From: Paraspadella gotoi
Taxonomy: Eukaryota > Animalia > Chaetognatha
Direction: 5' to 3'
Length of the DNA stretch: 31,797 nucleotides
Assembly: GCA_051294375.1 (NCBI GenBank)
Contig: JBJCIZ010001226.1
Coordinates: 17,641 to 49,437 of the forward strand
Shown: positions 1 to 31,534 of the stretch, piece by piece
Layout: each line of letters starts with the position of its first letter
Numbering within the stretch: the first letter of the stretch is position 1
Position numbers and translations under genes: made by a program
The notes under the pieces: generated by a model
Seen by the model: only the letters and a program-made list of their open reading frames with translations
Told to the model about the DNA's origin: nothing
The model's database searches: none

Positions 1-118
1 AAGAGAAAGAGAGATAAACAAGAGAGAGAGGGCAAAGTTTCCAACACAGAGTTTAGAAAGGACAGTGGTCAATTGGTGAGGACAGGCTGAAGTTGAGAAA
101 AGACAGAGTAAGTTGTTA
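1..118 (-). repeat. Fragment of the pyrimidine-rich repeat that elsewhere precedes the minimal hammerheads
   Basis: Reverse complement (cttcagcctgtcctcaccaattgaccactgtcctttct...tgttggaaacttt) resembles 2535-2600 (cttcacctgtcctcaatctgaccactgtccttttc...tgttggaagcttt). Confidence 0.65.
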
Positions 119-135
119 GGCAGATCCGACATTGT

Positions 136-764
136 TTGCTCAAACTTGTTTCATATGTAAATAACCGTCATCTTTCCATTGAATTTATTCAACAGCCCGA
201 GAAAATTCAAGTTAATGATACTCCATCTGTTCAAACAACCATCTCGTTAGCTCCAACCAAGGGGGCAACGCCTACGCGGGGCAGCTCTCAAAAGGGTGGC
301 GTTGTATCCGCCAAAGTACAGGCAAGGCCTGTCGCGGTCAGCAAAAAGGTTAGGTTATTTGCGCCTTTTTATACTTATGTTTTAAAGTAAAACTGTAAAA
401 ATATTATTTCTTTAGCCTGCCAACTCGGGCTCTAGACAAATAATTAACATTCAGTCTGTGAAGGGCGCCTCCACATCGACGTCTCAGCAAACAGCAGTGT
501 CGACTGAAACATTAGGTCGGTTAAAACTACATATAGATTAAAAGAATAACATTAGTAAACCAATTAAATTATTCTTTCTTCTCCAGGGGGACCCACGACT
601 TCTTGCCATTACAACCAAGAATGGCCCAAGGTTAATAAATTATTTAAACTGACTTGAATTAAGATGGATGATAAATAATAAAAAAATTTGATTCAAATTA
701 TTTCAGTGCCCAGTTAAGCGAAGTTTGTCACCAATCGATTTCCTTGGAAGAAGAAGCCGAAGAC
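136..764 (+). other. Possible spliced gene or gene fragment, product unknown (exon-like blocks about 136-348, 416-515, 587-630, 707 onward)
   Basis: GC-richer blocks separated by 65-76 nt AT-rich GT..AG introns (tttctttag, ttctccag, tttcag acceptors). Translation is S/T-rich low complexity with no recognisable family; reading frame across junctions is ambiguous. Confidence 0.35.
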
Positions 765-1418: not shown

Positions 1419-2270
1419 TTTTAGTCGGATCTGCATATTAGCACATTTCCGACTCTATAATCCACTTTGTCTGTCCGTCGGGTCTGTCAGTCCCCCCCAA
1501 AAGTTAGTAACTTATATCATTTCAGAACTTCATATTATGATAAATTAAGCAAAAAAAAACGATGTCCGTCTGTCTGAAGGTCCGTCCGACCTTTTCATTA
1601 AACTCCAACTCCTCCTAAGGTCCATCTTTTAATATTTATTTAGGTTTTGAACGTTTGCAGCAACTAGGAATGCAAGTAAGAATGTTTTGACAATATTTTA
1701 TTATTATTAATTTCTTTTGTGATGCTTACCCAATTGAGCGTAGTGAAAGTTGCGTACGAAATTTCTAAAAGTCAATTATGAATAACATAGCATCAGTGAA
1801 CATTAATTTATAAAAAAAAAATTAATTTTTGTTTTAATTTTCACAGTAGGCTATATTTATATATAGTATTATCCTTTTAAAATCGCAAAATTTCAAAATA
1901 GGCTTTTCTTAATTTTGATTGCAGATTTGAATTCCTAGTCAAAAGTTGAGAAATATAGCTTTTTATTTTATCAACTTTTTATGACGAATCCAAATCTGCA
2001 AAAAAATCTTAGAAAAAAACTGTTTTGAAATTTTAACATTTATTTGCTTAGTACTAGTATTAAATATAGACTACTGCGTAAATTGTAAAATTTATTTTAA
2101 ATTTTTATTATACATAAATGTTCATTAGTATAATATTGTTCGTTCCTCACTTTTAGAATTTTAATTAAAGTTTAAAGTTAGAAATTTTGACTTACGCCCT
2201 TATACCTTATTGCCTGGCAAAAGCAGGACGTTGACAATGGGGGGGGGCCAGCTCATTTTGAGCTTTTTCT
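1419..2270 (+). mobile_element. HINE/DINE-1-like (Helentron-associated) non-autonomous element, interrupted by a MITE
   Basis: T-run, then the 5' inverted repeat agtcgga..tccgact, GTCY microsatellite (gtctgtccgtc), and a 3' hairpin agctc-atttt-gagct followed by a T-run. A second partial copy lies at 17553-17692. Confidence 0.55.
1736..2200. mobile_element. Palindromic MITE with long imperfect arms (GAGCGTAGTG...CTTACGCCC)
   Basis: Arms 1736-1956 and 1961-2200 are imperfect reverse complements around agct at about 1957-1960; a second copy lies at 5927-6160. Confidence 0.75.
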
Positions 2271-2469
2271 TTCTTTATTTTCTCTAATTCTTCAACTTAG
2301 CTATCCCTAACCACATATTCTTCTTCTTTCTTTCTCTCATTTCAATCTTAATTAATAAACTAGTTAAAAAATATTCTCAGTTAAATCTACTAGTTTAAGC
2401 ATTAAGTTTACTTATTGTTATTGAATTATTTATTTCTTTATCTTTGTTGTACATTACATGAATGTAAAT

Positions 2470-2820
2470 ATTTTCTCTCTCTCTTCAAATTTTCACCATT
2501 CACATTTCAACCACTTTCTTCTTCTTCTCTCTCCTTACCTTCACCTGTCCTCAATCTGACCACTGTCCTTTTCTCAACCTTTGTTGGAAGCTTTCTCTCT
2601 CTCTTTTTCTCTCTCTCTCTCAATCTCTCTCTCTCCCTCTAATTCAATGTTAAGAGAAAAATTTGTCTGATTATTCAAACGCTGATGAAGGCTTATACAT
2701 AAAGCCGAAACATGTCCCTATGTAAAAATAAAAATCGTTGTAAATAAACAAACTTTGTTTTTCTCTAAATTAAATGATTATAAATTCTGAATTCATGGAA
2801 AAAGATTATTCATGTAATAT
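2470..2820 (+). mobile_element. Penelope-like pLTR-type repeat carrying a minimal hammerhead
   Basis: Similar to 5460-5770, and in part to 1-118, 15125-15250 and 21632-21790; contains the hammerhead core and downstream AATAAA. Confidence 0.6.
2682..2716 (+). ncRNA. Minimal type I hammerhead ribozyme (PLE-type)
   Basis: CUGAUGA-A-GGCUU(AUACAUA)AAGCC-GAAA-C-AU-G-UC: intact core, stem II and palindromic ACAUGU stem III; stem I is weak. Confidence 0.8.
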
Positions 2821-3310
2821 TTATTGATAACGTAATTTTTTTTAGGTTTATAAAATTGATGCCCCCTCCATTTATATGGTCGTCGGCGAGGGGGCCACAA
2901 AGACCCCATCTTTTTAATTTTTTTTTCTCTTTTCGATTTTTTCTTTTTTTTAAATTTTTTTATTCAATTTTATTAAAGATTTTTGTACAGGTGTGGAAAA
3001 AATATTATACATTATGCATCGCAGTTTATTATTTCAACCTTTAATTAATTTTTTTCCTAATAGTTAAGCATAATTTATATTAAAAATTATAAACTTAGAT
3101 GCCGATCTTTTGTATATTTTTTGTTTTACAAAATTTTGTATTTGTTTAATTTTGTAAAATTTTGTAATTCTTACCCTGTTTACTACTCTGGTTCTGGACT
3201 AATTACGCATTTATCTTCCAATTTTATCCAGAATCTTGACGCCGAAGCACCTTTTGTCGTAATTGGCCATCCTTATTCAATTCCTTCTTCAATTGTAAAG
3301 CAAAATGGTG

Positions 3311-4515
3311 ATGATCTTCCTGCAGATGAAAGAGAGAAAAGCCACGTGGGTCTGTCCCGTCTGCGACAAATCCGCCCACTTCGTCGTTCTCGCCATAGAC
3401 GGGTCGGTTCTTTGAAGGGGGGGTGCCCATTTTCCCCCCTCTTCTCCAAAAGTATTTTACCATATTTGTTTATCCAAAGACGGGAGTTGGGATAATCTGT
3501 TTTAATGTCGTCTCACGTCGAGCGCCGCGACGACTAACGGCGGGTCCCATTTTACAAACGGAGCCGAACCGGGTAAAGAGAACTCAAAGGGACCTAATTG
3601 AGTTGCCTCGTCTGGATTTAATTTCTCTTTTTTCTCTCTAATTAGCGGCCGGAACCAAGCGAAAAGTCGTTGCTGTTGATTTGACTCTGACGACGACAAT
3701 TCCGCTTCGAGACCGCCTCCCGCCAAATGGCCCGCCCACTCCAGCAGCCAGTCATCCGTGGGTCATACCGCCACCCACTCTATCAGCCACCCTATCTCTC
3801 ACTCAATCAGCCATGCCGCCTCCCACAGCTCATCGACGCGGCTTGCAACAGGAACTTCCTCGCAAGATCAGCTCGTCAGCACCTCGACAACATCGCCGAT
3901 GCTCGCCACACCAGCAGATGCACGGGGTACCTTATCCGGTTTCCAGTCCTTGCCAGTCACCCTCACGGCCAACCAAACCGTGCAGCATTACATCCCAGGT
4001 TAATGGCCTCAATAGCCCGATATGATAACTTTTTTAATTTTATCTTTAGAAGACGTTTGATTATTATCTTAAATTTCTTTTTCTCTCTACAAAAGTTATG
4101 TCCATCGGGTACCCTTATGGATCTCCCTCGTGACTGTCCGTCGCGATATTGACCAGCGCCTTCAACATGCAAGGCGGGTTTTCCCATAAATTATGGGATT
4201 TCATCTCAAAATCCCAACTATCGAGTCTTATCGTCACACTGTGGACGTCACACTGCGTCCACAACACCCTGCAAACGTGTTTGATTATTTGAGCAGTCAA
4301 CCGTGAGTTTAGGGGGGGAAATCGTTGGTCGTGGTACCTGATTAACATTATAGTTTTACTTTATAGCAAACCAATTCATTTATGATCGTCGTTCTCACTC
4401 CAATCCATTCGGTTTCAGTCGCAGCGGAAAAGCGGTGGTGGATTTGGTGTCACAGCAAAGTCGCGGCTTTGGTGCGCCGAATTCGGCGCCGCCGGACGTC
4501 GTCACCCTGTATTGA
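3311..4515 (+). pseudogene. PIAS: PIAS/Su(var)2-10 SUMO E3 ligase, 3' half, intron-retaining and disrupted
   Basis: 3311-3402 encodes FLQMKERKATWVCPVCDKSAHFVVLAIDG (SP-RING end). DGSW at 3479-3490. In-frame intron 3573-3645. SIM-acidic motif KRKVVAVDLT/DSDDD..PPAK. C-terminus PDVVTLY* (cf. PDIISLD*) ends at 4515. Contains stops and frameshifts; N-terminal half absent. Confidence 0.88.
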
Positions 4516-4610
4516 CTATACAGACGCGGCTGCGCGACTGGTTCTCGGGAGCAGACGCCGGCTTCACCCGGCGGCGTTTATGACGGAAAGGCGACCTCGA
4601 CGATGGCCAA

Positions 4611-4658
4611 CACTTTAACGACGACACCCACTTTAACGACGACACCCACTTTGATGAC
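4611..4658. repeat. 18-bp tandem repeat (cactttaacgacgacacc, about 2.6 copies)
   Basis: Directly visible; lies in an unidentified GC-rich exon-like block. Confidence 0.9.
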
Positions 4659-4834
4659 CACGAAATAAACTACCTCGGTGCCCCAAACTACCTCATCGAC
4701 TCAAATGAAAAGAGCAACGGTGGGCGACAACGGAAATCCTCCAACAAATCCTACTCTGGCGCGCCGCTGACGACTGTCGCTTCACCGGCGAGTCCTCAAC
4801 GTCGTGCGCAACCCTGATATTGACGCCGGCCGAC

Positions 4835-4960
4835 CTGGGGCGCCGGATCTGTTGGCACAACTTTGCCTTCTTCGATCCTGTCTCCTACGAGTTCATGCGG
4901 ACCCTCGTTGTCGACATCAAGACTCCACTCTTGGGCCGCGACACTGCGGCGCTCTTCGCC
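4835..4960 (+). pseudogene. UBR5: UBR5/hyd HECT-domain fragment
   Basis: Encodes LGRRICWHNFAFFDPVSYEFMRTLV..AALFA, matching the recalled UBR5 HECT motif LGRKVNWHDFAFFDPVMYESLRQL; flanks do not continue the protein. Confidence 0.8.
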
Positions 4961-5074
4961 TTTTCATTGTTCGGAATTTCATTATGCTTTTTTTTGTTTT
5001 CTCCATCTTATCAATTATAATTCACTATTGCGACCTGGAGCTTCAAGCAATGACTTTTAATTTTGTTGTTTCAG

Positions 5075-5313
5075 TTAATGAAAAATGTTTGTGTGCAAAA
5101 AAATCACTCCTCTGAAAATGCTGCCGCAGGAAAATCCGATAGAGCAAATAATTGTGCCATCACTGGCAGAGGCGCTGAGATAAGACAAGGAGACGATGGA
5201 GCAATTGAAGAAGTCATTGGTGGATTCGTATTTGCTGGAGCTGGGCGGCGAAAATCGTTGGAGAGGGACAGATCTTCACCCGTCGAAGTCACTCGGTAGC
5301 GAGGGCATAGAAG
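5075..5313 (+). pseudogene. Unidentified exon-like fragment
   Basis: Bounded by tttcag and ag/gttggt; one frame reads KMLPQENPIEQIIVPSLAEALR*DKETMEQLKKSLVDSYLLELGG with one internal stop. Confidence 0.4.
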
Positions 5314-5459
5314 GTTGGTCGTAACTCATTTTTATGTTAATTTTGTTCATGTTTATTGATCTTTTTGATTAATGTTTGTTCATTTAAAAGTGATTTTCAA
5401 GTTTGACACAAAAATTTTATAGATGTACATTATTAAATGTATTATGTCAAAACTTTTAC

Positions 5460-5770
5460 ACCTTTAAATTTCAATTTCACATTCTTACTCCATCCCTATC
5501 TGAATCCTCAACTTGGACCACTATTCCTTTCACTCAATTTCTTTGTTGGCAACTTTGAACTTGGTTTCTCTCTCTCTCTTTCTCACCCTTTCTAAGTTTC
5601 TTACAAACCAAAATTCAATGTTTCACAAATATCAAAACTTTTTGCGCTGTTGAAGGTTCGTATTAAGAGCCGAAACATGTCCGATTTTAACTAATAATTG
5701 TTGAATCTCAATAAAAACTTTTTACTTTGCAAACAAAAAATTGTACTGAATATAAGGGATGCCAAAAAAT
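5460..5770 (+). mobile_element. Second PLE-type hammerhead repeat copy; core mutated
   Basis: 5647-5681 reads CUGUUGA-A-GGUUC(GUAUUAA)GAGCC-GAAACAUGUC; the core A6 is changed to U, so it is probably inactive. Confidence 0.65.
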
Positions 5771-5926
5771 TGGTTAAATAATATAAAAATTATACATTCA
5801 ATCATTAAATATGCACTGATTTAATATAAAGTTATCAATTAAAATGGATTTGTTGAAATGAAAACTTTAAAATAATGGATACAATCAAATAAAAATTCAA
5901 TAATAATGTACTAATCAATCCTCAGT

Positions 5927-6160
5927 AAGGCGTAGTAAAATTTCTAAATTTCACTTTAATTAATGCAAATTTTCAATCAAAATTTAAAAAAGCCTATTTT
6001 GAAATTTTTCGATTTTATAAGGATAGTACTATGTATAAATAAAGCCTACTGCAAAAATTAAAAAACATAAAATTAATTTTTTTTACAAATTAATGTTCAC
6101 TGATGGTATGTTGTTCATAATTGACTTTTAGAATTTCCGTACGTAATTTTCACTACGCTC
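5927..6160 (-). mobile_element. Internally deleted copy of the 1736-2200 MITE
   Basis: Reverse complement of about 5965-6160 aligns with 1736-1929; 5927-5963 matches the opposite terminus. Confidence 0.8.
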
Positions 6161-6881
6161 TAGTACATAGTGCACAACAATACAATTTGAATTTGAGGAC
6201 AAAAATAGTCTGTTGGATGTTCGATCAGTTTAAATTTATAACATTTAACTGTTACATCGTCATCATGATTAATTTTGGACAGCAACTATGAAAATATTTT
6301 TTATGGTTTTTATTTTTATTCATGTCCTGATTTTTTCTCGACAATTTTTTTCTTATCAAATTAAAATAATATTCTTAAATTAGCTTATTCAAATGTCATT
6401 AGTTTCCGTCTAATTATATGATTTAATTAAAAAATTTATAGGAGTGGATAATTGCCTCATTTAAGATCATATCTTTGCCGTTCACACTGCTTTCGCTGAT
6501 GCTTAAATAATCACGATGGAAATAGACAACGAGCAAAATGTTTATTTTGTGGACGCATTCTTACTCTGAAACTTGTTGCGTCCACAATTTACTTATTTAC
6601 AATCGATAACGCAATGAGAGTAAAATAATTGAGTCAGAAAATCTATTGCAACCATTCGGGCCGAGGGCAGCTTCACTTCTGAAAACTAAAGTCCTTCGTC
6701 CTACTCCCTCGGCTCATGAAACAATCTCCTTTGACCTAGTCCCACTCTCCGCCCTCTGATTCGCTATGAAGCTAAAACCACGATCGAATAAACGGAGAGT
6801 GGGAGGGAGAGAGAGAGAGAGAGTTCACGTTGATCGAGTGGAGTGGAGGCGGATCCCATATCCGCTGACGATATAAAGGGA

Positions 6882-7120
6882 GTGGTCTTTTCATACAATT
6901 GAAACATTCTTTGAAATATTTTCCACTTCATTGATAGGGAAGCCAGGTACTCTGGGAGTGAATAAACGGGACTGTGAAAGTCTTGATTGAAAGCTTGCAG
7001 GGACCTGCTATGTCATTATCTTGTAAGAGTGATGGAGGCCTTAAACCACCAAAGTCAGGGGCAAGATAGCTTATTTATTAAATGAATGGATAATTTTTAT
7101 ATTGGTTGTACCAATTTCAT
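6882..7120 (+). repeat. Dispersed repeat 'X', longest copy (fixed 3' end, variable 5' truncation)
   Basis: caaagtcaggggcaagatagcttatttattaaatgaatggataatttttatattggttgtaccaatttcat recurs at 16766-16811, 21926-22017, 29130-29220 and 31392-31528; a diverged 5' part lies at 17738-17870. Confidence 0.9.
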
Positions 7121-7194
7121 TAAATAATAATCCCTTACAAATTAACTTATTGATTTACTCTTCTCTTTCCCCAACCCTCTTCCCCCACCCAAAG

Positions 7195-7710
7195 GTTAAT
7201 CAATTCTCTATCCCTCATCGCGACCCTGTCCGCTACGGCATCCTCGCGGCGCTCAAAGAGATCCTCTCCTTTTCCGTCGTCCCTTCACTCTCGCCTTTTC
7301 AAATCCAAATGTCGACGTCAAACTTCGTCAAATGATGCGGGAGAATTTCCCGAGTCCGCGATTTGACCGAAGTCTTCCTTCGTCGTCGTCGTCGTCATCT
7401 TCGCGTCGCCGAAGAGTAAGAAAAGACCAAACTGGCGCTCAAGCTACTCGTTAAGCAAACTGCTTTTTACAACCATTGTCGTTATAGGGTTTGGCGGCGG
7501 CCTCACCGCAACTACCGCCGTCGCATCCAACGGCGCCATCAACGTCTCCGCGATCCAGTGCAGCTCTGCAACGTCCAATATCGTTTGCCACTTCTCGGCT
7601 GGGGTCCATGGTCTCTAGCAATGCTGCCCCTGGCGGTTTTACTCCCGTCATTTCCATCGCGATGAGCACCGTCGTCAGGTGTTCCAACATCTCAAGGAGT
7701 TCCTTCTTTG
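7195..7710 (+). pseudogene. Two unidentified exon-like fragments separated by a 37-nt GT..AG intron
   Basis: VNQFSIPHRDPVRYGILAALKEILSFS...*CGRISRVRDLTEVF with internal stops; intron gttaag..ttatag at 7451-7487. Confidence 0.4.
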
Positions 7711-7935
7711 GTTAGGTTAATCAATTCTCCAATTACGATGAGGGACCGGGCACCATCGCTGATGTCAGAAATTACAATTCAACGCAATTCATTGCAAAAC
7801 TCCGCGGTCCTGCATTCGGAGCATTGCAAATATTACCTTGACGGAGATGCTCCGTTTTGGCATTCTTTAAAACATTTTTTTGTTGCATTTTAACCTTCAA
7901 GTAGTTAATCTTTGGAATTAGCTATAAATATTTAA

Positions 7936-10900
7936 ATGGTTTTAATTTCAGAAGCATCCATGAATGATACAGAAGTAACGAAAGATTGTTGTATTTGTCA
8001 AAAAGCCAACAATGAATCCATTTCCTGTGAATTTTGCAATTATAACTTTTTTCATCCTGTAAATGAATACCAAAGTAATGGATCTGATGAAGAATTCCAA
8101 ATTACTGACTTTAATATTGAATCTTTACTTGATAATCATATTCTTAGTTATATCTTGATAGAGCATAATTATTCCAAAAATATTCCCTCATTGATTGGTA
8201 AAAGAATTCATAAAATTTCCAATTATCATAAAGACAAACATTCCATTGAGAAAACGAATGTTACTTCTTGTTCTTTTGAAGATATTGTTGACACTATAAT
8301 AAATGATACCGAATTATCTTCTTCTAAAAAAATAGAGCGGTTCCCGCAGAAAAGTCTTTGTATTGATCCAAGTATATTTAATGAAATTAAATTGAATGCT
8401 ATTCCAAATAAAAATTTTCAATTTGTAGTCTGCCAATCTGTTTATCAACATCATTTTCGCAAATTATTAGAAGAAGTAAATAATCGTTGTATTTTTCATT
8501 CAAAAAGTTGTGTTTTCTTGAAAAAAAGTAACACGCTTAAGGCAATTTTTTATTGTGCCGCTCGAGGATGTGAATTGAAATCAGAGGTGATTGTAAACAA
8601 CCAAGGGAAAGCTAGTTTAGAATTTTATTTGAATAAAAAATATGATATTAGAAATTCGAATTCGCACATACTTGTTTCTCATAAACCTGATGTTCCAAAA
8701 TGTAATTATGTAAGACAAAATGAAAGAAAAACCTTATTTAAAGAATTAGAAAACAAAACGCCGAATCAGGTTTATGTATCAATGAAATCCAAATTAACAA
8801 GTGAACATGTTGTAGCAGGAAAGACTTCTTATAGTAAAAGGGTATGCAAAGAACTTGTTTTTGAATCGCGAAAACATATGTATCCAGACGAAAATTGTTT
8901 ATCCTCTCTTATCAAGTTAGCGAATAAAATGGATTATATTCAGAGTATTAATATTCTTCCAAATATAGAAGTAGTTTGTTTTTTGAAATCCTTTTTAAAG
9001 TTAGGAGCGCAGATGTCGTATCATTACACCATTGGAGTGGATGGGACAACTGATTTTGTTTTTGATTTTTTAGGTAAAAGGTTAGAATTATATTCATTTA
9101 CAATAAAAAATCCTATTGTAGGAAATGCTCCGATTTGCATTGCCGCAGGATTTTTATCATGTCAAAATCGTGAAGAAATTACTAGTCTTTTTCAAAAGAT
9201 TAAAAATGCTATCATTGATCATATTCCAAATTTTTGCCCACCACAGGTAGTTTGTGATAAGTCATTCGCTATTATCCGATCTCTTTTAGTTGTGTTTAAT
9301 AATGAGGATCTAACTGCTTATATCTCTAGATTATATCGAGTTGCCTATGGTTTGGAATGCAATTCGTGTAATAAAACCTTAGTTCTTTTATGTGCTCGGC
9401 ATCATTTTCAATCTATTAAAAGAGAACTTTTTAAAATAAAAGCAAATGAAGAATGTAAAAGATTTTACACAATAGTTGCTTCGTTACTTGTATCTTGTTT
9501 AAATTATTCTCATTTTAAATTTGTTTTACATCAAATGATTATTATTGGAACTAGTAAAAAGGATAATATTTATGTAAAAAGAGCTAAGTTAGAAATTAAG
9601 AATTCTTTGAAATCTATTAAGGATAAAAATTTTGAATTAGATAATGATAATCATTTTGAAAAAGAAAACCTTCAGGCCGAGTCAGATTTTGTTAGTTTTG
9701 TTCACAATAATAAAAATCCTTTAAAAGAGTCTGAATTTTATAAAGATTTTCTTGAATTAAAATGTAAAATTCAAGATTCTGACCATGAGGACTCATTTAA
9801 TAATTTGTATTGCCCAAAGTTTATTGAATATTATGGATTATTTTGGGCATCTTTTCCTGTCTATGGAAATATTTTTCGGGGTAAGTTTCGAAAACCGGAA
9901 CAAGTAGACCAACTTGACCGGTTAAGACATACGTCTGTTTTAGACAGGACTAACAATGTTTCTGAACTGCGAAATAAACTGTATAAAGATTTATTACAAA
10001 AAAAAGTTAGATTGGATGTTGCTATTATAAAGTTGGAGGAATATGATCGTTCTCTTTTTATTGAACTATCCGAAAATCTTTTATTTGAAAATATTTCATG
10101 TAGTAAAAAACGAAAACATTTTACTGGCATAAATGCACCCGAAATTTGCAGAAAAAGAAAAATGAATAAGGATTCTTCTTTGATGCTTGAAGATGTTGAC
10201 GTTGCCAATGTAGTTGATGTTTATACTTCTCATAATGATTCTGAATTAATACAGCCAGGAATGATTTGGCCTGCTTTCATGTTTACTTATCAAAATAAAG
10301 TAAATGCTTGTAGCACTATGGCCACAATTAATTTTTTTAGTAACTCTTATTCCATCAATGATATGCTTTTTCAATTTAGAATTTTAAAAAAACCGTATCC
10401 CAGTGATTTTTTTAAAAATCTTGATGAAATGTTATTGTCGGTTTATTTCAATTATTCTCAAAACAATTTATCTGTCAGAACCAATGAAGAAGTTTCAAAA
10501 CTTCACCAATCTTTTATTTCTCATCATGCTTTAGATCACATTTCTGAAAGACAGTTTACTATTGACTCATTATTTCAACTTTTGAATTCGTCTTCTTTAT
10601 CAATAAAAGATATTTATAAATGTGGGCATTGTGATTTCGAATCTGAATTCGTTACCAATCCGCCTTTTTTAACTATTGCTGCAAATCCCATCCTTTCAAT
10701 GTCAGAATGTATAAACATACAATCAAAATCAGAGCCCGTTTCAGATTTTACATGTTCCCAATGTGATTATTTAGGGATTGCTCAATTAGATCAACTTTTT
10801 ATTGATTCGCCAGTGAATTTAATTATACGTGTAGGAAGGGATCGGGATCAACGTGTAGAACAAAGTATTACTTTTTTAGGTCCAGTTGAAATTGAAATTC

Positions 10901-12576
10901 AACTTTCTTTTGGAATAAAAATTGTTGTTGATGGAAAAGAAGTAAATTATAATTTAATGAGCGGTCTTTGTTTTGCTGGTAATGACAACATGGGACATTT
11001 TTATACATTTTCTCCTATTTTAAATAAAAATCAAATTATAGTTTTTGATAATGACAATTATTTTATTCTTAAAACTGGATCTGCTGGTTTTAAAAAGGTT
11101 TCTCGTGAAATTATGTATTTAAATTATGCCAGAGCAAATGATTTGAATCAGTCGTTAATTAATAAACTAAAGTTTAAGCTGCCTCTTTTCGATATTGTGA
11201 AACGCTCCCTTTCAGAGACAGTAAGTTCAGAAAATGAATTTTTAAATAAACATTTTGGCATGTATGTCTGCAATCAGTCAATCTTGTCCAAGCAATACAA
11301 AAGTTTCATGGTTCAATTAGATGCAATTGATCGTTTATATCATCAGTCTCTTCAAGTGTGGTTTGAAGTTAAGTTTTTTTGTGTTTTTTGTTTAAAAACT
11401 TTTATTATCGGTGAAACTATTTCTCCACTTGAAATTATTCAACAATCTTTACAAAGTTGGAAAAACCAATTAAAACAAATTGGTCTTTACGGAATAACAC
11501 AACAAGGCTGCAAACATGCTATTGAAGAAGAAGATTTACAACTTCAAATTACACATTTACCCGAATATATAGTAGTGTTCAATAATTTTTTTGAAGTAAA
11601 TCGTGTTGTAACTCTTTTGAATCAATACTTGTCCAGTCTTAAAGAAATAAACCCAAACTTCAAGGACTCGAGTTATTTCATAGAAAATATTTTTATTAGT
11701 TCAAAAAATGATTTTTTCACACCTAAAAGTAATGAATTTGTAAGCGAGAACACTAGAGAAAAACTTTCAAAATCGGCCATTAGTAGTCTTAGCTCTGTAG
11801 ACAATATTTATTTTATTAAGTTAAGTCTTCCAAAGATGACTGAAATAACTGGTCTTAAACTTGCAGACAGTGAAGCATTGTTGAGCTTCAAAGCATTTGA
11901 TTTTTGGGATTCTTATAAAAGTATTGAAGAGCTGCCTTTAAATAAACTATGTATTAGCCAAACAGTTTTTATTGGGAATCTTATTCTGAGCGAAAATGAA
12001 CAAAAAGAAATTTTAGACTTGAACATTCCTCTGACAACAAAGGTGATTGATTGTTTCTTTCACAGCGTTTCAAAAGTTTTTTTTTTAGAGTTTTCGTATA
12101 TTGGGGCTTCTTCCCATAGTTTCTTGGAAAAATATTCTATACCGTCAATTGTTAATACTTTACTTAACGACTGTCATGACTTTGAACGCGTACTTTTACA
12201 TGAATCAACACAAGATATACTTATTGGAGTTGTAGAGGAAGAAAATACCAAAAGTTTGTTTTCTTACCTTTTTCACTGGGAAAAAAATGTTTTGCTTACA
12301 TATGATCCAATTTCTCCTATTCAACAATCGAAACTTAGTAAGATAGTTGATCAGATTAGGGTTTTATCTTGGCGTAAATCTAAAACCAATGAATATATTG
12401 AACATTTTGATTTAGCTTCGGCTAATCTTGTTCAAAACAAACCGAATCAAATTTTCTCAAGTACTTATATTTGTTTAGTTCCTTTCTTTTTGTTTTTAAA
12501 CAAAAATTTTAGTATGTCTGAAGAAGTAAATCGACAGTTTATTTTGCAGACAATTTTAAATGCAAATAAAAATTAA
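7936..12576 (+). CDS. Mutator (NOF/Rehavkus-like) DDE transposase fused to a USP (C19) protease, a degenerate USP-like segment and an inactive Ulp1-like domain
   Basis: Uninterrupted 1546 codons. MULE motifs: VDGT (D369), VVCDKSFA (D441), CARH (486-489), RTNNVSE (E677). Partial PHD-like CxxC..CxxC..FH and a CxxxxC Zn motif at the N-terminus. USP boxes NKVNAC (C792), GHFYT (H1021), FDND (D1038). Ulp1-like LTTKVIDCFF..YDPI..Q at the C-terminus. The true start may lie in an upstream exon (acceptor tttcag ending at 7951). Confidence 0.88.
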   Translation: MVLISEASMNDTEVTKDCCICQKANNESISCEFCNYNFFHPVNEYQSNGSDEEFQITDFNIESLLDNHILSYILIEHNYSKNIPSLIGKRIHKISNYHKDKHSIEKTNVTSCSFEDIVDTIINDTELSSSKKIERFPQKSLCIDPSIFNEIKLNAIPNKNFQFVVCQSVYQHHFRKLLEEVNNRCIFHSKSCVFLKKSNTLKAIFYCAARGCELKSEVIVNNQGKASLEFYLNKKYDIRNSNSHILVSHKPDVPKCNYVRQNERKTLFKELENKTPNQVYVSMKSKLTSEHVVAGKTSYSKRVCKELVFESRKHMYPDENCLSSLIKLANKMDYIQSINILPNIEVVCFLKSFLKLGAQMSYHYTIGVDGTTDFVFDFLGKRLELYSFTIKNPIVGNAPICIAAGFLSCQNREEITSLFQKIKNAIIDHIPNFCPPQVVCDKSFAIIRSLLVVFNNEDLTAYISRLYRVAYGLECNSCNKTLVLLCARHHFQSIKRELFKIKANEECKRFYTIVASLLVSCLNYSHFKFVLHQMIIIGTSKKDNIYVKRAKLEIKNSLKSIKDKNFELDNDNHFEKENLQAESDFVSFVHNNKNPLKESEFYKDFLELKCKIQDSDHEDSFNNLYCPKFIEYYGLFWASFPVYGNIFRGKFRKPEQVDQLDRLRHTSVLDRTNNVSELRNKLYKDLLQKKVRLDVAIIKLEEYDRSLFIELSENLLFENISCSKKRKHFTGINAPEICRKRKMNKDSSLMLEDVDVANVVDVYTSHNDSELIQPGMIWPAFMFTYQNKVNACSTMATINFFSNSYSINDMLFQFRILKKPYPSDFFKNLDEMLLSVYFNYSQNNLSVRTNEEVSKLHQSFISHHALDHISERQFTIDSLFQLLNSSSLSIKDIYKCGHCDFESEFVTNPPFLTIAANPILSMSECINIQSKSEPVSDFTCSQCDYLGIAQLDQLFIDSPVNLIIRVGRDRDQRVEQSITFLGPVEIEIQLSFGIKIVVDGKEVNYNLMSGLCFAGNDNMGHFYTFSPILNKNQIIVFDNDNYFILKTGSAGFKKVSREIMYLNYARANDLNQSLINKLKFKLPLFDIVKRSLSETVSSENEFLNKHFGMYVCNQSILSKQYKSFMVQLDAIDRLYHQSLQVWFEVKFFCVFCLKTFIIGETISPLEIIQQSLQSWKNQLKQIGLYGITQQGCKHAIEEEDLQLQITHLPEYIVVFNNFFEVNRVVTLLNQYLSSLKEINPNFKDSSYFIENIFISSKNDFFTPKSNEFVSENTREKLSKSAISSLSSVDNIYFIKLSLPKMTEITGLKLADSEALLSFKAFDFWDSYKSIEELPLNKLCISQTVFIGNLILSENEQKEILDLNIPLTTKVIDCFFHSVSKVFFLEFSYIGASSHSFLEKYSIPSIVNTLLNDCHDFERVLLHESTQDILIGVVEEENTKSLFSYLFHWEKNVLLTYDPISPIQQSKLSKIVDQIRVLSWRKSKTNEYIEHFDLASANLVQNKPNQIFSSTYICLVPFFLFLNKNFSMSEEVNRQFILQTILNANKN

Positions 12577-13206
12577 TTTTTTTTGGTTATTTTGTGTAAT
12601 TATCGTGCGTTTATTTTTTAAACATAATAATTGGTCATAAGTTAAAAAACTGCAATATACTTGTGAAGGATATAAAATATCCAAAGAATTTTGTTTTCTC
12701 TTTGTCCCTTTGACGGTCTGGACAAAATGTGTATCTTTGTTGCGTGATGTAGGGCAGTGGGACTCTTGAGTTATCTTTCATATCAAAATATACTCAATAG
12801 ACCTGCTTGCGATGTCGCTCACGCTTTTTTTTTTTCAAATGCGACAACGGGCCTTGAAAGGAACCCCTCGGGTGGCCCGGAATACCTTTCATGCTCATTT
12901 GATTTGCAACTTTAAATTAGCGTTTGGATCAATTGCGTCTCCAGAATGCTGGGGCGGTGGATGAAAAAGGCGGCAAGGACACCTTAGACTTTTGCCTGAA
13001 GAATTCAAAGAATTCATGCAGACTTTTACATCAATTTAGTAAATTTTTCAGTATTTGTCACCTGTTGGTTTTTTTTTTCCTCTTTTTATGCTCTTCAGAT
13101 ATAAAAATGCCCATAATAGATACTCAAGACCTGTGCAAAAACAGACTTTCGTCTGTTCACATATTGTAAGTCTTATGACTATACTGGGCCATACTTGTTA
13201 ACTCAA

Positions 13207-14439
13207 GCAAGACGTGGTCCTTTAAGCAAGAATAGACGCGGCCAAGTCGGCGGCAGCTCCCCTTCCGAGGACTCTAGACTGCGCCACCTCTTCCGGCGCT
13301 GGGGCGAGAGATCCAGCCGCCAGTGGGGAAGGCGACGTCGGGGATGGAATCGTCTGGAATAAAGTATTGTCTCCCTCAATGAAATCAATTACTGCAACAA
13401 TCAATATGTGTTCAAGTGAGACCTTTTTTCTTTCTGCGTCTTTCGACACCAAATATTCATGACCATTTTCCATCAAAGGATGCAAGTGGACAACCTGTTG
13501 CCCAACACCCGTTACAACTACCGATTCATCACCTTCGTCCAAAGGCCGCGGCGACTTCTCTGTGACCTACAGCCTGATAACCAAGCCGCGGCCGCCTTCA
13601 AAGTCACTCAATGCCGCCGTTAAGAAAATTCTCATCAACGAAAAACCTGCCATCATCGTGAGCGTCTTATTGCAGTTTAATCAAAAAATTCATGGATCTC
13701 ATCATCTTTTCCCCTCATCCTCATAGAATAACAGTGGCGACGTGATGGACTACTTTGTTGACACTCCATATGTTGTAGACGGCGTCGGGGCGCGACCGTG
13801 AAAGTTACGTCTCTCGCGACGCCATCAAAAAAAGAGCCAAACCCGAAACTACAATTACAACGCATCCTCGGGACATCCTCTTTCTCAATTGGACCGTGCC
13901 GGCCAAATTCATGGTTAGTTTTTTCTTCAATAACCTGACCTTTTCCGAAACGAAATAATCATCTCTCGCGTTTAAAATTAAATTAGTACATATTTACGAT
14001 TCTTCGATCTTCCATCTTTCAGACATTGGTCGCTGTGGCGGTGGAGAGCAACAATCATCAGGGTCCGAGCTGCGGAAGGACGAACCCGACGTCAGCAAGA
14101 TCGTCGCCGTCATCGTCTTCACCGTCATCCTTACCATCGCCATCATCTCCGTCGCCTTTACCAGGATGCCGACTTGCTTCGGATTGTTAAACAGGTTAAG
14201 TTAGAGAAAATTGAATTAATAAAAATTATGAGAATCAAAATTGATGTTAATTTAATTAATAATTCTAGGAAATACCACGGCACGGAATACTTCGACGCTT
14301 CCGTCGTCCAAACCCCTTCCATCGAGATCATGTCAACGATCGATTCCAACATCTAACAAGAGACCCCGTCGCCGACTTTGCCGCCTACGTGCACCGCGGC
14401 AGTGTCAACGACAATCTGGGATTCGCCGAAGATTTTTAG
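13207..14439 (+). pseudogene. Receptor-type protein tyrosine phosphatase fragment (FN3 repeats, TM helix, wedge), intron-retaining and heavily deleted
   Basis: FN3 motifs VDNLLPNTRYNYRF (from about 13486), LFLNWTVP and VAVESNNHQGPS; TM IVAVIVFTVILTIAIISVAF (14100-14159); wedge-like PVADFAAYVHRGSVNDNLGFAEDF* ending at 14439. Short GT..AG introns, frameshifts and stops. Confidence 0.8.
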
Positions 14440-14499
14440 GTGTTCAATTTAATGAATTCAGTTCATAATTTTAAATTTATTTACTCGATGCAATTTATC

Positions 14500-14700: not shown

Positions 14701-15349
14701 ATTGACTAATTGCATTTTTTAAACGATTCCCTATCATCACACATCATTACATTACATAATATCCGAGATCACTATACTTTTAAGATTTTTTTATTTTGAA
14801 GTTTTATGAAAGTTAACATTTTATTAAAATTAGTCTTTAGTTTTATATTTTTTTGTAGACATAGTGAAAAGACTTTTGTTTCATTACGTTTTAAAAATGA
14901 GAGAGAAAAAGTTTATTTCTGTTTACAAACAACGAGTTTTATTTTGAAACGGATATATTTCGACTCTTTTTCGAGTCTTCAGCGCAATGTGAATTTATAA
15001 AATTTAATTTTTATTTGATTTGTCTTCGTTATTTTAGTTTTTTATTTACTATTGTTATAAATTGCCTAAACGTATTGCTTTCTCCAAACATTGTTCACTA
15101 TTTATTCTCAAATGACCTTAGTTCGTTTCTCTTTACTCTCAGACTCTCCTGTCCTTACCTTCAGCTGTCCTCACCCTCAACACTATCTTTCTCAATTTGT
15201 TTCAAAATAAAACTTGTTTCTAAGGAAAAATAAACTTTGTTTTCTCTCTCAATTATATTTTTTTTATATTTTACCATTTTTATGCAGAATTTATGCAGAA
15301 TAATTAAGGATAAGCAGCTCGACCCTCATTACCAAAAATTTATTCTTAG

Positions 15350-15777: not shown

Positions 15778-16853
15778 TAAAATTTTACAATTTAATCATT
15801 AAAAAAGTCAGTTTAGCATTTTTTTCTTTTTGGTTATGAAGTTCAAATTAGTTTGCTACAATCAGTAATTTTTTTAATGTTAGTTCAAATTCTTTTTTTC
15901 TTCTTTGCAATCATTATCTTGTTTCCTACCAATGTAATGTACTATTGTGTTTCTATTTGATTTGAAAGATAATTATAATTGTATATTTCCTTGGTGTTTT
16001 TGTGAGCTTCAAGGCCGAGTTTAAAATCGTAAAACATGATACTTAAAGCTCGACATAAATGTATAGTTAATTATTACTTATTGATTAGACCAGTAATACA
16101 CACATTTGATTTGGAACACTCGAGTTTAAAAAATCATCTCTGAAACCACTCGCCCAATTATGATTAAATTTATACACATTGATTCATTATTTTTTAATTT
16201 AAATTAAAATTATTCTTATGGAGTGTCTGGAGTTTCAAGTTATATTTAAAGTTATATTTTTTTCACATGTGTACCTTATTACATGTAGATTATACACGCA
16301 CTTGCTTAAATCAGCAGGGCGTCAACCCAAGTCCATTAAATTGCGAGAGGCGTGCGTTAGTGCGTAACGATAGGACGATGGTTTTTTTATCAGATGAAAA
16401 ATTTGTCTAAGTTTAAGTAGACCCTCTTAAAGAGAAGAAACGGACAAATAATTTTACGAGTGTGAATGATTATAAGCTAAATTCTGTTTTACCGTTTCTG
16501 ACAGTCAATAACTCATTTTTATGTCACCAATGTTCTCCTAAACTGTTTACCAAACTGAAACTCATTGTTTGTTACAATATCTGTACTGCTTATTAAACAA
16601 TCTTCGATGTGTTGTTTACTGGTTAGTGAAGGAAAAAACAGACCAAGACTGGCTAGATTTTTAGTTTTTCAAGTTCTCATAGTATAGAAAGTTCAAAGCG
16701 AGGGGTACGATATTGGATTAATTTTACTTTCGCCGACGGGGTTAATGGTTAAATTTTACCATTTTATTTATTAAATGAATGGATAATTTTTATATTGGTT
16801 ATGCCCAATTCAGAATAGTCGGTTTGTATTTCAATGCGAGTGCAGAGAATGAA

Positions 16854-17915: not shown

Positions 17916-18591
17916 GAACCCCTTTTTTGTGACCAGAATCTGTTCCCACCAAACTACCCGATCGAATTTAATGAAATTTTACATTTAGAGTGCTCATGAC
18001 TATATAAATGGAACTATCGAGGCGAATTTTGATGTTCAATCCCCTGACTAGAGATACAGGGCCCTGGGGGTGGACCCCTGGGGGGGCCAAAAAGTGCTAA
18101 AATTTTTTTTCATTTTTCAAATTTTTTTAGTAGCATCAAGTGCATTGATGTTTTAAACATAAGAAAAAAACATTTTAGAACTAAAATTGATAAATCTGCA
18201 ATAATTAAGCATGGTTAAAGATGCATGGTTCATCGTTTTACTTCCAATTTTCCCAAATTATTCCAAATCTGACTAACTGCTGATGTTCATGAAGCTAAAA
18301 ATTAAGGTAAATCAATATTTTTTAGGTAATAAATACGTTTTTGTGGAAGAGTAAACGTCTGTGCAACTGTTCAAAACAAAGATAATTAAAAAATTTGGAA
18401 AAAAATTTTTGACAATTTTTTGCCCCCATGGGTGACCCCCCGGGGGACCCATATCTCGGCTCAGCGGTCAAATATTAAAATTCGCCTCGATAGTTTTATT
18501 AGTATTCACATAGGGATCGTTCATTCCAAATTTCAATAAATTTGGTCCAGTAGTTTTCTCGGAACGAGTTCTGGTCACAAAAAAGGGGTAC
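17916..18591. mobile_element. MITE with long imperfect terminal inverted repeats
   Basis: ACCCCTTTTTTGTGACCAGAA at the left and TTCTGGTCACAAAAAAGGGGT at the right; inner inverted pairs aactatcgaggcgaatttt / aaaattcgcctcgatagtt and G-rich/C-rich blocks. Confidence 0.85.
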
Positions 18592-18641
18592 TATGGCAAC
18601 AGCCGGGTTGCCTGTGATGCCCATTGGGATGGGGCATCTCA

Positions 18642-18728
18642 CTGTTGGCTTTGGGGGCTTCCGACCCTCAGTGACGCCTCCAGTCACTGGCGCGGTTACC
18701 CTAGGACGGTCTCGCTTTGCCAATACAG
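18642..18728 (-). ncRNA. Type-P5 twister ribozyme candidate (copy 1); predicted cleavage U/A between 18698 and 18697
   Basis: CUGUAUUGGC(P5) AAA GCGA(P2') GA CCG(T1') UCCUAGGG(P1) UAA CCGC(P2) GC(T2) CAGUGAC..GUCACUG(P3) A GGG UCGGAAGC CCC(P4/L4) C AAA GCCAACAG(P5'). All twister elements are in permuted order; P2 has one C-A mismatch. Confidence 0.75.
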
Positions 18729-19088
18729 AGGGAAGTCGTTAGGACTGTGGATGGAACACTACGCCTGGGATGGTGTGTTCCCCCTCTGAGCCAATGTATT
18801 TGGCTGAAGGATGGTGGACGTGAGGCGGTGTGAATATACCGCCACAGGATCCCCGGGTCAAGACATCACTCAGGTTCCTCAAGCCTGAGAGGTGTCTGAC
18901 AAGACTGTTACCATAGTGGGAGAGAGAGAGCGCGAGTTGTGGGAGCAGAGGCGTTTGTCGTAGCGTACCCCAGGGGCATAGGCGTTTGTCGTAGCATACC
19001 CTGAGAAGGTTGCATGTTCGATAGTAGGGCTCACCACTTATGGCAACAGCCGGGTTGCCTGTGATGCCCATTGGGATGGGGCATCTCA

Positions 19089-19175
19089 CTGTTGGCTTTG
19101 GGGGCTTCCAACCCTCAGTGACGCCTCCAGTCACTGGCGCGGTTACCCTCGGACGGTCTCGCTTTGCCAATGCAG
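19089..19175 (-). ncRNA. Type-P5 twister ribozyme candidate (copy 2); predicted cleavage between 19145 and 19144
   Basis: Same fold; L4 reads UUGGAAGC, which keeps T1 pairing with CCG through a U-G wobble; P1 region is UCCGAGGG. Confidence 0.72.
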
Positions 19176-19389
19176 AGGGAAGTCGTTAGGACTGTGGATG
19201 GAACACTACGCCTGGGATGGTGTGTTCCCCCTCTGAGCCAATGTATTTGGCTGAAGGATTATAATATGAAGCCTTCCATATAGCCTGTCTAATGTGTAGA
19301 CCCTCTTAAACCCATAATCATGGATGTTCAATAAAACTACATGGCAACTGTAGCTTACAGTGTAGGCAGATTTATGTAATTGATAATTG

Positions 19390-21150
19390 AGCACTAAACT
19401 ATTCAACCTTTACGCTAAACTACTCAACCCAAACCCTAAACTACTCAAACCTAACCAAAACCCTAAACTACTCAACCTTAACCAAAACCCTAAACTACTC
19501 AACCAAACCCTAAACTATACCTGTCAACCAAAACCCTAAACTACTCAACCTCTAACCAAACCCTAAACTACCTTCCAAACCCTAAACATAAAACCTTAAA
19601 CTACCCCAACCCTACTAACCACCAAAACCCCTAAACTACTCAACCTAACCTACTCAACCAACCCGACAAACTATTTAACCCAAAACCCTAAACTACTCAA
19701 TCCTAATCCTACTCAACCCTAACCTAAACTACTCAACCCTTACCCTAAACTACTCAACCCTAACCCTCACCTAAACTACTCAACCCTAACCAAAACCCTA
19801 AACTACTCAACCCTAACCAAAACCCTAAACTACTCAACCCCCCACCGTAAACTACTCAACCCTAACTCGAACCCTAAACTACTCAACCCTAACCAAAATC
19901 CTAAGCTACTCAACCCAAACCAAAACTATTCAACCAAAACCTAAACTACTACCCAAAACCTAAACTACTCAATCCTAATCCTACTCAACCCTAACCCTAA
20001 ACCACTCAACCCTTACCCTAAACTACTCAACCCTAACCAAAACCCTAAACGACCCAACCCTAACCCTAAACTACTCAACCCAAACCCAAAACTATTCAAC
20101 CCAAAACCTAAACTACTCAATCCTAATCCTACTCAACCCTAACCCAAAACTACTCAACCCTAACCAAAACCCTAACCAAAACCCTAAACTACTCAACCCT
20201 AACCCAAAACTATTTAACCCAAAACCTAAAACTACTCAATCCTAATCCTACTCAACCCTAACCCTAAACTACTCAACCCTTACCCTAAACTACTCAACCC
20301 TAACCAAAACCCAAAACGACCCAACCCTACCCTAAACTACTCAACCCAAACCCTAACTACTCAACCCAAACCCTAAACTACTCAACCCCCCACCGTAAAC
20401 TACTCAACCCTAACTCGAACCCTAAACTACTCAACCCTAACCAAAATCCTAAACTACTCAACCCAAACCAAAAACTATTCAACCCAAAACCTAAACTACT
20501 CAACCCAAACCCTAAACTACTCAACTCTAACCCTAATCTACTCAACCCTAACCAAAACCCTAAACTACCCAACCCTAACCCTAAACTTCTCAACCCTAAC
20601 TGTAAACTACTCGACCCTAACCCAAACCCTAAACTACTCAACCCTAACCAAAATCCTAAACTACTCAACCCAAACATAAGACTATTCAACCCAAAACCTA
20701 AACTACTCAATCCTAATCCTACTCAACCCTAACCCTAAACTACTCAACTCTAATCCTAAACTATTCAACCCTAACCCTAAACATTAACAACACCCACTAC
20801 TCCTAACCCTAAATTGACAATAACATTAACTCTAAACTGAACTTAACCCTAAACTACTCATCCCTAACCCTAAACTACTCAACCCTAACCCTAAACTACT
20901 CAACCCTAACCGTAAACTACTCAACCCTAACCCTTACCCTAAACTCCTCAACCCAAAACTACTCAATCCTAATCTTAGTCAACCCTAACCCTAATCTCCT
21001 CAACCCTAACCCTAAACTACTCAACCCTAACCCTAAACATTAACAACACCAACCTACCCCTAACCCTAAAATTGACAATAACGTTAACTCTAAACTGAAC
21101 TTAACCCTTACTCAACCCTAAGCCACCTTAACCCTAACCCTACTCCTACT
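19390..21150. repeat. Telomere-like satellite built from CCCTAA plus an ACTACTCAA spacer
   Basis: Dozens of units of ccctaaactactcaaccctaa, with variants and longer recurring blocks. Confidence 0.95.
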
Positions 21151-21160
21151 TGTCAATTTT

Positions 21161-21305
21161 AGTTTAGTTTCGGCGAAATCGTCATAACTGGAATGCTCAA
21201 TGTAGTTAACTGCTAAATCGCCAAATGGTGAGGTCGTCTTTTGGTGATTTGGCACTCAACTCTATTAAGCATCCATGTTATGGTTATTTTGCCAAAACTA
21301 AACTT
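21161..21305. repeat. Imperfect palindrome with about 65-bp arms at the satellite polarity switch
   Basis: 21161-21225 is an imperfect reverse complement of 21239-21305; C-rich repeats lie on the left and G-rich (ttaggg) repeats on the right. Confidence 0.75.
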
Positions 21306-21477
21306 GGATTAGGGTTAAGGTTGAGGTGGTTTAGGGTTGAGTTGGTTTGGTTTGGTCGGTTTGGTTGGTCTGGTTTGGTCCCATGCAACGGGAGGAATGC
21401 CTGTGATACCCGGGGCGCGGGTTATCTCACGAGACAGACAGCGGTGAGGCAGCCTTAAGTCTTGCCACAAATTACTA

Positions 21478-31528: not shown

Positions 31529-31534
31529 AAGTAT

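What the first reader, a model, noticed from the sequence alone, without database searches (positions are those of the whole stretch)
3175..5313. Mosaic of intron-retaining host gene fragments (PIAS + UBR5 + unknown exons): Pack-MULE/Helitron-like capture
Within about 2 kb the 3' half of PIAS starts abruptly mid SP-RING, ends at its natural stop, and runs into an unidentified block, a 42-codon UBR5 HECT piece and another orphan exon. Introns are kept, which points to DNA-level capture rather than processed pseudogenes. Such chimeras are typical of plant Pack-MULEs and of Helitrons but are less documented for animal MULEs. No element boundaries were identified, so the vehicle is unknown.
Basis: partly seen in the sequence, partly recalled or inferred. 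Interest (0 to 1): 0.7.

Follow-up and report, generated by a model that had tools for sequence, protein, structure and literature searches.

The report
Transcribed patchwork of three host genes
A 2-kb stretch of an animal genome is a real patchwork of broken pieces of the PIAS and UBR5 genes plus a likely third gene, and it is spliced in RNA-like data; it was likely stitched together by DNA repair rather than carried by a transposon, which is a known kind of event.

Summary
The mosaic is real. The PIAS SP-RING half (E 3.8e-8) and a 42-codon UBR5 piece (E 1.8e-5) are confirmed. Contigs matching the window bridge the three junctions in 2, 4 and 3 of 4 runs, so it is not an assembly artefact.

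Corrections: PIAS starts near 3310, not 3175. The "unidentified block" is PIAS 3'UTR (to ~4688) plus the upstream part of the donor that carries the UBR5 piece.

New: diverged second copies of all three pieces exist, and an RNA-like run holds the mosaic itself, spliced at a GT-AG intron. Depth suggests one copy.

No vehicle was found: no TIR with a 9-11-bp TSD, no Helitron end. A 200-bp inverted repeat does flank it, but each arm is its own high-copy MITE with both ends. An open MULE-like transposase ORF lies 2.6 kb downstream, with no shown link.

Best reading (0.45): serial template-switch repair made a transcribed chimeric pseudogene. Transposon carriage (0.3 together) and a deleted segmental duplication (0.12) stay open, because no genome is held. 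The scan held no note on this DNA. New member of a known kind.

The parts
1736..2200 (.). Left MITE, about 465 bp, internally palindromic, both ends present; high-copy
   Evidence: Self-alignment of 1759-1957 with 1964-2162; summed contig depth about 17,000 times the unique level
2437..2799 (+). Repeat with a minimal hammerhead-like core at 2682-2711, likely a Penelope-type terminal-repeat remnant
   Evidence: Motif scan; depth about 500 times unique; motif class from PMC4209133 passages; fold z-score -0.99, no Rfam hammerhead hit
2800..3309 (.). Unassigned AT-rich sequence directly upstream of the PIAS piece
   Evidence: GC 0.27; no Pfam match for 3175-3330; covered by identical contigs in 4 of 4 runs
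3310..4515 (+). 3' half of PIAS, broken: last 20 of 50 SP-RING positions, four introns, stops and a frameshift, ends at TGA 4513-4515
   Evidence: second, diverged copy and splice joints
4516..4688 (+). PIAS 3'UTR piece (inferred), with a 21-bp tandem duplication near 4615-4636 that the second copy lacks
   Evidence: the joint 4615>4636 has side 53 in 4 of 4 runs, at the same depth (371.9) as the 1701-nt X5 contig that carries the PIAS exon
4689..4718 (+). Junction between PIAS and the second donor; a 10-bp motif is duplicated at 4667-4676 and 4685-4694
4719..4963 (+). Second donor piece; 4832-4957 matches the UBR5 HECT region; 4810-4833 differs from the second copy
   Evidence: joint 4809>4834 with side 91 in X4 (239x) and X5 (549x). 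That 4719-4809 is UBR5 coding sequence is not shown (0 hits)
5075..5313 (+). Orphan exon-like piece with one in-frame TAA at 5181; donor gene unidentified
   Evidence: AG acceptor at 5073-5074 and GT at 5314; variant copy at 5214/5216 in X1, X4, X5; no usable hit
5416..5759 (+). Second hammerhead-like repeat, 66% identical to 2437-2799
5928..6160 (.). Right MITE, same family, inverted, internally deleted, flanked by TA on both sides
   Evidence: 87.6% identity to 1736-1933 over 201 nt; inner end aligns to 2152-2202 and stops there; other copies diverge before 5926 and after 6162 (table 7)
7192..7950 (+). Spliced leader running into the MULE-like ORF (intron 7416-7487); link to the mosaic not shown
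   Evidence: X5 contig 21, 0 differences; GT..AG
7936..12576 (+). Open 1546-codon ORF, MULE-like transposase with a weak C-terminal UCH match; neighbour of the mosaic, link not shown
   Evidence: Atlas scores 0.95/0.93/0.90, 10 of the 10 best family hits share the MULE family or clan; PF00443 E 5.9e-4, below cut-off

Best explanation
This is a chimeric pseudogene made of intron-keeping pieces of PIAS, UBR5 and a likely third host gene, apparently single-copy and spliced in RNA-like data, and it was likely assembled by serial template switching during repair of a DNA break in a transposon-rich region rather than carried in by a transposon. Shown: the pieces, the junctions, diverged second copies, the kept introns and splicing of the mosaic. 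Inferred: a stalled fork or broken end copied about 1.4 kb of PIAS, switched to the UBR5 locus for about 250 nt, then to a third locus, and rejoined. The product is likely non-coding, since the longest ATG-started frame inside 4419-5313 is 73 codons. Its splice sites came with the PIAS piece. Its promoter is unknown.
For: Junctions are bridged by contigs with 0-1 differences: ~3310 in 2 of 4 runs, 4689-4718 in 4 of 4, UBR5-to-orphan in 3 of 4. Depth over the mosaic in X1 is 0.8-4.5 times the median unique depth, and 7 of 10 bins lie at 1.4-2.2 or lower, as expected for mosaic plus parent. No TIR with a 9-11-bp TSD and no credible Helitron end. Short duplications lie at or near the first internal junction, as template switching tends to leave (own knowledge). 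In animals most single-copy captures arise by transposition-independent gap filling (PMC8277862, abstract and passages).
Against: The support for the mechanism is mostly the absence of a vehicle. Parent sequences at the junctions were not seen, so microhomology is untested. An inverted MITE pair does flank the mosaic; my rough chance for this family alone is 0.07-1% (assumed densities, chosen after the fact, several repeat families present). An open, transcribed MULE-like gene lies 2.6 kb away. Depth of 3.3-4.5 times unique over 3620-4053 hints at further copies of one PIAS exon. The tool warns that summed depth is no copy number. Old element ends may simply have decayed. In the gap-filling cases of PMC8277862 the filler sits inside one broken TIR element, which is not seen here.
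Confidence: 0.45

Rival explanations
1. TIR-transposon cargo: the mosaic is part of a Pack-MULE/Pack-TIR-like unit, either a large MULE that includes the downstream transposase gene or a composite bounded by the two inverted MITEs (1736-6160).
For: Inverted repeat of 201 nt at 87.6% with both outer ends alike; low rough chance of such flanking; MULE-like ORF open and transcribed nearby; captured pieces are GC-rich (0.47-0.61 in exon-like parts against 0.27 upstream), and PMC8277862 says Pack-MULEs and multicopy Pack-TIRs favour GC-rich DNA (passage). Divergence of the arms from each other (12%) is compatible with that of mosaic and parent (15 differences in about 200 nt).
Against: Each MITE has both of its own ends, and similarity stops at the inner TA. 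At 4 of 4 sites where an arm departs from the family majority the other arm has the majority base. Outer flanks are TT and TA, with no 9-11-bp TSD. No inverted repeat joins the region upstream of the MULE ORF to the region downstream, apart from low-complexity or known repeats. A MITE pair could move the mosaic but would not explain how three donors were joined.
Confidence: 0.2
2. Decayed segmental duplication: PIAS, UBR5 and the third gene are neighbours, were duplicated as one block and then lost large internal parts.
For: All pieces lie on one strand and keep introns; single copy; no element ends. Read data cannot place the parents.
Against: It needs at least two large deletions: the UBR5 match starts at residue 2558 of 2799, and about 1.2 kb of PIAS tail is missing. 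The three genes would also have to be adjacent and co-oriented.
Confidence: 0.12
3. Helitron or Helentron capture with ends since eroded.
For: Serial capture of several gene fragments with introns is documented for bat Helitrons (PMC4224331 passages).
Against: One hairpin-plus-CTRR site in 2200-6200 against a shuffle mean of 0.41; it lies upstream of the mosaic and has an atypical 19-nt gap. No Helitron ORF was recognised among the 133 ORFs listed (18 plus 16 were scanned against Pfam). No multiplication.
Confidence: 0.1
4. RNA-level copying of unspliced transcripts by a Penelope-like reverse transcriptase, with template jumps, between two terminal repeats.
For: Hammerhead-like repeats sit directly on both sides, in direct orientation about 3 kb apart, the spacing described for Penelope terminal repeats, and these elements keep introns (PMC4209133 passages). 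All pieces are sense.
Against: The two repeats are only 66% identical, less than either is to other copies in the window (71-82%), so they are not a sister pair. Six such units occur in the window. There is no poly(A), and all four PIAS introns are kept.
Confidence: 0.08
5. Assembly artefact.
For: No listed contig spans the whole stretch; 3582-3914 has no listed identical contig in the DNA runs (32 of about 56,700 pieces shown).
Against: All three junctions are bridged, in samples from up to three studies; X7 has a 97% contig over 3698-3996.
Confidence: 0.02

Closest known systems
Single-copy animal Pack-TIRs formed by gap filling (Tan et al. 2021, PMC8277862; seen: abstract, outline, passages, sections 9 and 10)
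   Same: DNA-level copy of host sequence, apparently single copy, transcribed as chimeric RNA, in an animal.
   Different: Here there are three donors and about 2 kb of cargo (their median is 224 bp), and the cargo is not inside one broken TIR element.
Plant Pack-MULEs and the fly Pack-MULE Ssk-FB4 (as described in PMC8277862)
   Same: GC-rich gene fragments with introns, transcribed; a MULE-like transposase gene is close by.
   Different: No long TIR with a 9-10-bp TSD, and no further copies seen.
Gene-capturing Helitrons of vespertilionid bats (PMC4224331; seen: passages)
   Same: Several gene fragments joined in series, introns and UTRs included.
   Different: No Helitron termini and no amplification; bat captures favour 5' gene ends, whereas here 3' and internal parts were taken.
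FoSTeS/MMBIR-type templated multi-donor insertions (named in PMC8277862; details recalled)
   Same: Short pieces of distant loci joined in series, with small duplications at junctions.
   Different: Microhomology with the parents was not tested; classical cases come from human and cancer genomes.

Membership tests
Pack-MULE | Cargo enclosed by the two TIRs of one MULE | tested here: not met
   The only long inverted repeat is two separate MITE copies, each with both ends
Pack-MULE | 9-11-bp target site duplication | tested here: not met
   Scan for TIR plus 7-11-bp TSD gave 5 and 3 hits, all 7 bp with a mismatch, internal to repeats or AT-rich
Pack-MULE | Host gene fragments copied at DNA level with introns | tested here: met
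   Introns 3573-3645 and 4303-4418 are kept in the window and spliced in X5
Pack-MULE | Parent copies exist elsewhere in the genome | tested here: met
   Diverged second copies of all three pieces in DNA runs X1/X4; their positions are unknown
Pack-TIR (gap-filling type) | Filler replaces part of a single TIR element, flanked by its 5' and 3' parts | tested here: not met
   Arrangement is end A...end B, cargo, end B...end A
Pack-TIR (gap-filling type) | Microhomology at breakpoints | not testable with these tools
   Parent flanks were not obtained; no genome held
Composite transposon of two MITEs | Whole unit found at another site or missing as a block | tested here: inconclusive
   No joint skipping 1736-6160 among 15 rows shown of 352; interior depth is near single copy
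Helitron/Helentron | 3' hairpin followed by CTRR, inserted between A and T | tested here: not met
   No such site downstream of the mosaic on either strand in 2200-6200; one weak upstream hit at chance level
Helitron/Helentron | Helentron sub-terminal inverted repeats with TT target | not tested
   No dedicated scan was run
Penelope-like element | Near-identical direct terminal repeats with hammerhead core | tested here: not met
   Cores present, but the two flanking units are 66% identical
Processed pseudogene | Introns removed, poly(A) tail | tested here: not met
   Introns kept; no poly(A) in 4516-5420
Segmental duplication | Parents adjacent in the same order | not testable with these tools
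   No genome held

The most novel reading that the evidence does not exclude
The mosaic is cargo of a giant autonomous animal MULE of more than 11 kb (about 2800-14450) with no recognisable TIRs. It would encode an intact transposase with a ubiquitin-hydrolase-like domain, carry fragments of several host genes on both sides, and transcribe them as spliced chimeric RNA that could regulate the SUMO and ubiquitin ligase parents in trans.
Probability: 0.1. Interest if true: 0.65.

Novelty: new member of a known kind. Interest (0 to 1): 0.3.

Why it matters
It is a worked example of exon shuffling in an animal: three loci joined at DNA level into a unit that is spliced and reaches high contig depth in two RNA-like runs (138x and 486x, against 4-8x and 0-3x in neighbouring non-repeat sequence; contig depth does not measure RNA level). 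Such chimeras are already reported in animals (370 Pack-TIRs, bat Helitrons), so alone it is ordinary. It would matter more if the genome holds many such multi-donor mosaics beside this MULE family, because that would make animal multi-gene capture by MULEs directly testable.

Tried and rejected
No genome is held, so parents could not be placed. Read evidence rests on one laying, whose tables were cut (15 of 352 joints, 24 of 2809 loose ends, 32 of about 56,700 pieces shown); junction sequences of the parents and the 195-nt continuation of X7 contig 28 stay unseen. No RNA holder was listed as such; X5 (tool label RNA?) and X7 (label DNA?) are treated as RNA-like from GT-AG joints and uneven depth.

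Identifying the orphan exon failed: PDB best E 0.78, Pfam 0, 0 of 1.84 billion representatives. Searches for the organism's own parent proteins failed (0 of 455 and 0 of 11 candidates), as did relatives of the MULE core (0 of 4263) and exact look-ups (0 of 3). 4693-4830 read in the other frame gave 0 PDB hits, so a recalled likeness to upstream UBR5 is unproven. 4331-4512 gave 0 hits. 13228-13566(-) gave nothing usable. The MITE end pattern had 0 matches in metagenome contigs. Rfam: 5 matches, all below gathering score, none in the mosaic. Hammerhead-like units do not fold better than shuffles (z -0.43 to -1.22).

Rejected: the inverted repeat as the TIRs of one element; the hammerhead repeats as a sister pair; artefact.

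Literature: 6 searches; the PIAS+UBR5+chimeric+transposon search returned 1 unrelated review (listing only). Supplements were not read; those of PMC8277862 might list multi-donor cases. Earlier scan notes: nothing on this genome or sequence; one note on an algal gene piece in a repeat was not used.

Full report
OBSERVATION. Six-frame translation and searches confirm two named pieces. 3314-3406 matches PIAS2 and PIAS3 (E 3.8e-8, 6.7e-8) and covers positions 30-49 of the 50-position Pfam SP-RING model. Extending the query to 3176 does not extend the match beyond about 3295-3310, so the PIAS piece starts near 3310. 4832-4957 matches human UBR5 residues 2558-2595 over 42 codons (E 1.8e-5). A SIM-like and a C-terminal PIAS-like motif downstream are recalled, not from a call. 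The PIAS copy is broken: it lacks the N-terminal half and has stops and a frameshift. The organism is an unnamed animal (inferred from the two genes); no genome is held.

IS IT REAL? Nine public runs from three studies hold the stretch; four were laid on 1450-7950 at 80% likeness. Contigs with 0-1 differences bridge the 5' junction (~3310) in 2 of 4 runs (X1 2743-3373, X7 2710-3378), the PIAS/second-donor junction in 4 of 4 (X1 4402-5246, X4 4535-5246, X5 4419-5215, X7 4439-5005), and the UBR5/orphan junction in 3 of 4. X1 and X4 come from one study and may be the source of the assembly; X5 and X7 are from two other studies. No listed contig spans the whole stretch, and 3582-3914 has no listed identical DNA contig, but the table was cut and the tool filters records. 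An artefact is very unlikely.

PARENTS. Diverged second copies appear in the DNA runs at single-copy depth: variants at 3343, 3589-3601, 4565 and 5214/5216, and joints 3492>3518, 4615>4636 and 4809>4834. In X5 a 1701-nt contig at depth 371.9 carries the PIAS exon 4097-4299 with 15 differences and is joined to 4419. Rows of the same depth show a variant at 4565 and a joint 4615>4636 with 53 letters on its right. I infer that this is the parent PIAS mRNA, that it runs through the stop at 4513-4515 to 4688, and that it then continues for about 1.2 kb in other sequence. So 4516-4688 is PIAS 3'UTR. A different contig (X4 239x, X5 549x) has at least 91 letters on each side of 4809>4834, so the donor of the UBR5 piece begins at or before 4719. 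Whether 4719-4809 is UBR5 coding sequence is not shown. The orphan exon has a second copy but no protein match.

TRANSCRIPTION. X5 behaves like RNA: it has GT-AG joints that are not listed for X1 or X4. Its contig 18 (1088 nt, 138x) is identical to the window at 4094-4302 and 4419-5215 and skips the GT-AG intron 4303-4418. The mosaic itself is thus present in spliced form across two junctions, with 4964-5074 kept. X7 has a 567-nt contig over 4439-5005 at 486x with one difference. Contigs cannot give start, end or level. The longest ATG-started frame in 4419-5313 is 73 codons, so a non-coding product is likely.

COPY NUMBER. Against a median unique depth of 23.7 in X1, ten bins over the mosaic give 2.0, 2.0, 4.5, 3.3, 0.8, 1.7, 1.9, 2.7, 1.4 and 2.2. 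This fits one mosaic plus one parent, with a hint of extra copies of 3620-4053. The tool warns that summed depth is no copy number.

VEHICLE.

(1) An inverted repeat, 1736-1933 and 5962-6160, 87.6%. Both arms belong to one family at about 17,000 times unique depth. The left copy is a full palindrome, 1736-2200. The right copy is internally deleted but keeps its inner end; similarity stops at the TA beyond that end, and other genomic copies diverge before 5926 and after 6162. It is a TA-flanked MITE in its own right. The arms share none of 4 private variants. Against my reading: such close inverted flanking has a rough chance of 0.07-1% for this family alone, so a composite unit is not excluded.

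(2) Hammerhead-like repeats at 2437-2799 and 5416-5759, in direct orientation. They are 66% identical, less than either is to other copies in the window, so they are not a sister pair.

(3) An open 1546-codon ORF at 7936-12576, MULE-like by the Atlas and with a weak UCH match, with a spliced leader from 7192. No TIR or 9-11-bp TSD ties it to the mosaic. Helitron 3' ends occur at chance level.

MECHANISM. Shown: DNA-level copies with introns, second copies, real junctions, splicing. Inferred: serial template switching at a break in a repeat-dense region (0.45). Rivals: TIR-element cargo (0.2), deleted segmental duplication (0.12), Helitron (0.1), Penelope-type RNA route (0.08), artefact (0.02). 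The support for the best reading is largely negative, and the decisive tests need the assembly.

COMPARISON. Tan et al. (PMC8277862; abstract, passages, sections 9 and 10) report 370 Pack-TIRs in 100 animal genomes, mostly single-copy and formed by gap filling, 30% or more transcribed as chimeras, and one fly Pack-MULE. Bat Helitrons capture fragments serially (PMC4224331, passages). A review lists Pack-MULEs, Helitrons and Terminons as capturing elements (PMC6431247, passages). The mosaic works like these products but fails the membership tests for Pack-MULE, gap-filled Pack-TIR, Helitron and Penelope element. Three donors and 2 kb are larger than the reported animal median of 224 bp. None of six literature searches listed this locus or a PIAS-UBR5 chimera.

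VERDICT. Observation confirmed with corrected coordinates; interpretation partly supported. New member of a known kind; interest 0.3.

Noticed in passing
window 7936-12576 (+): Open 1546-codon MULE-like transposase ORF with a weak ubiquitin C-terminal hydrolase match in its second half; no relative at E<=0.001 among 4263 candidates; transcribed with a spliced leader in X5. Young element or domesticated gene.
   Followed up: partly
window 7486-7688: Part of the MULE leader matches a 5801-nt X5 contig (119x) with 21 differences and 19 gap letters: either another captured host fragment or a related element's transcript.
   Followed up: partly
window 13200-14450: GC-rich exon-like blocks on both strands downstream of the MULE ORF, one with a membrane-like stretch; unidentified; possibly a second mosaic.
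   Followed up: partly
window 112-760: Four short exon-like blocks with AT-rich introns, cut off by a 15-bp pyrimidine-rich tandem array at about 760-1390.
   Followed up: no
window 5045-5310: X7 contig 28 is identical here and then runs on for 195 letters not listed on 1450-7950, close to the GT at 5314: a possible splice to an unseen exon.
   Followed up: no
window 4922-5138: Depth 1496 in X7, three times the neighbouring bins; some short piece here matches an abundant sequence.
   Followed up: no
window 7049-7123, 16764-16816, 21946-22020, 29151-29225, 31458-31532: Very abundant 75-nt repeat; the copy at 31429-31469 has a weak twister-P5 ribozyme match (25.9 bits, E 0.15, below gathering).
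   Followed up: no
window 1-110, 2682-2711, 5647-5676, 15041-15260, 21477-21772: Dispersed repeats of one type, three with a clear hammerhead-like core on the + strand; the pair at 21477-21772 forms a near-perfect palindrome.
   Followed up: partly
window 19400-21150: Satellite of 21- and 27-nt units containing telomere-like hexamers, with an inverted remnant at 21301-21342.
   Followed up: no
window 17918-18589, 18592-19259, 25027-25807: A second palindromic MITE-like element and a GC-rich repeat family with tandem 221-nt units, in opposite orientation at the two sites.
   Followed up: no
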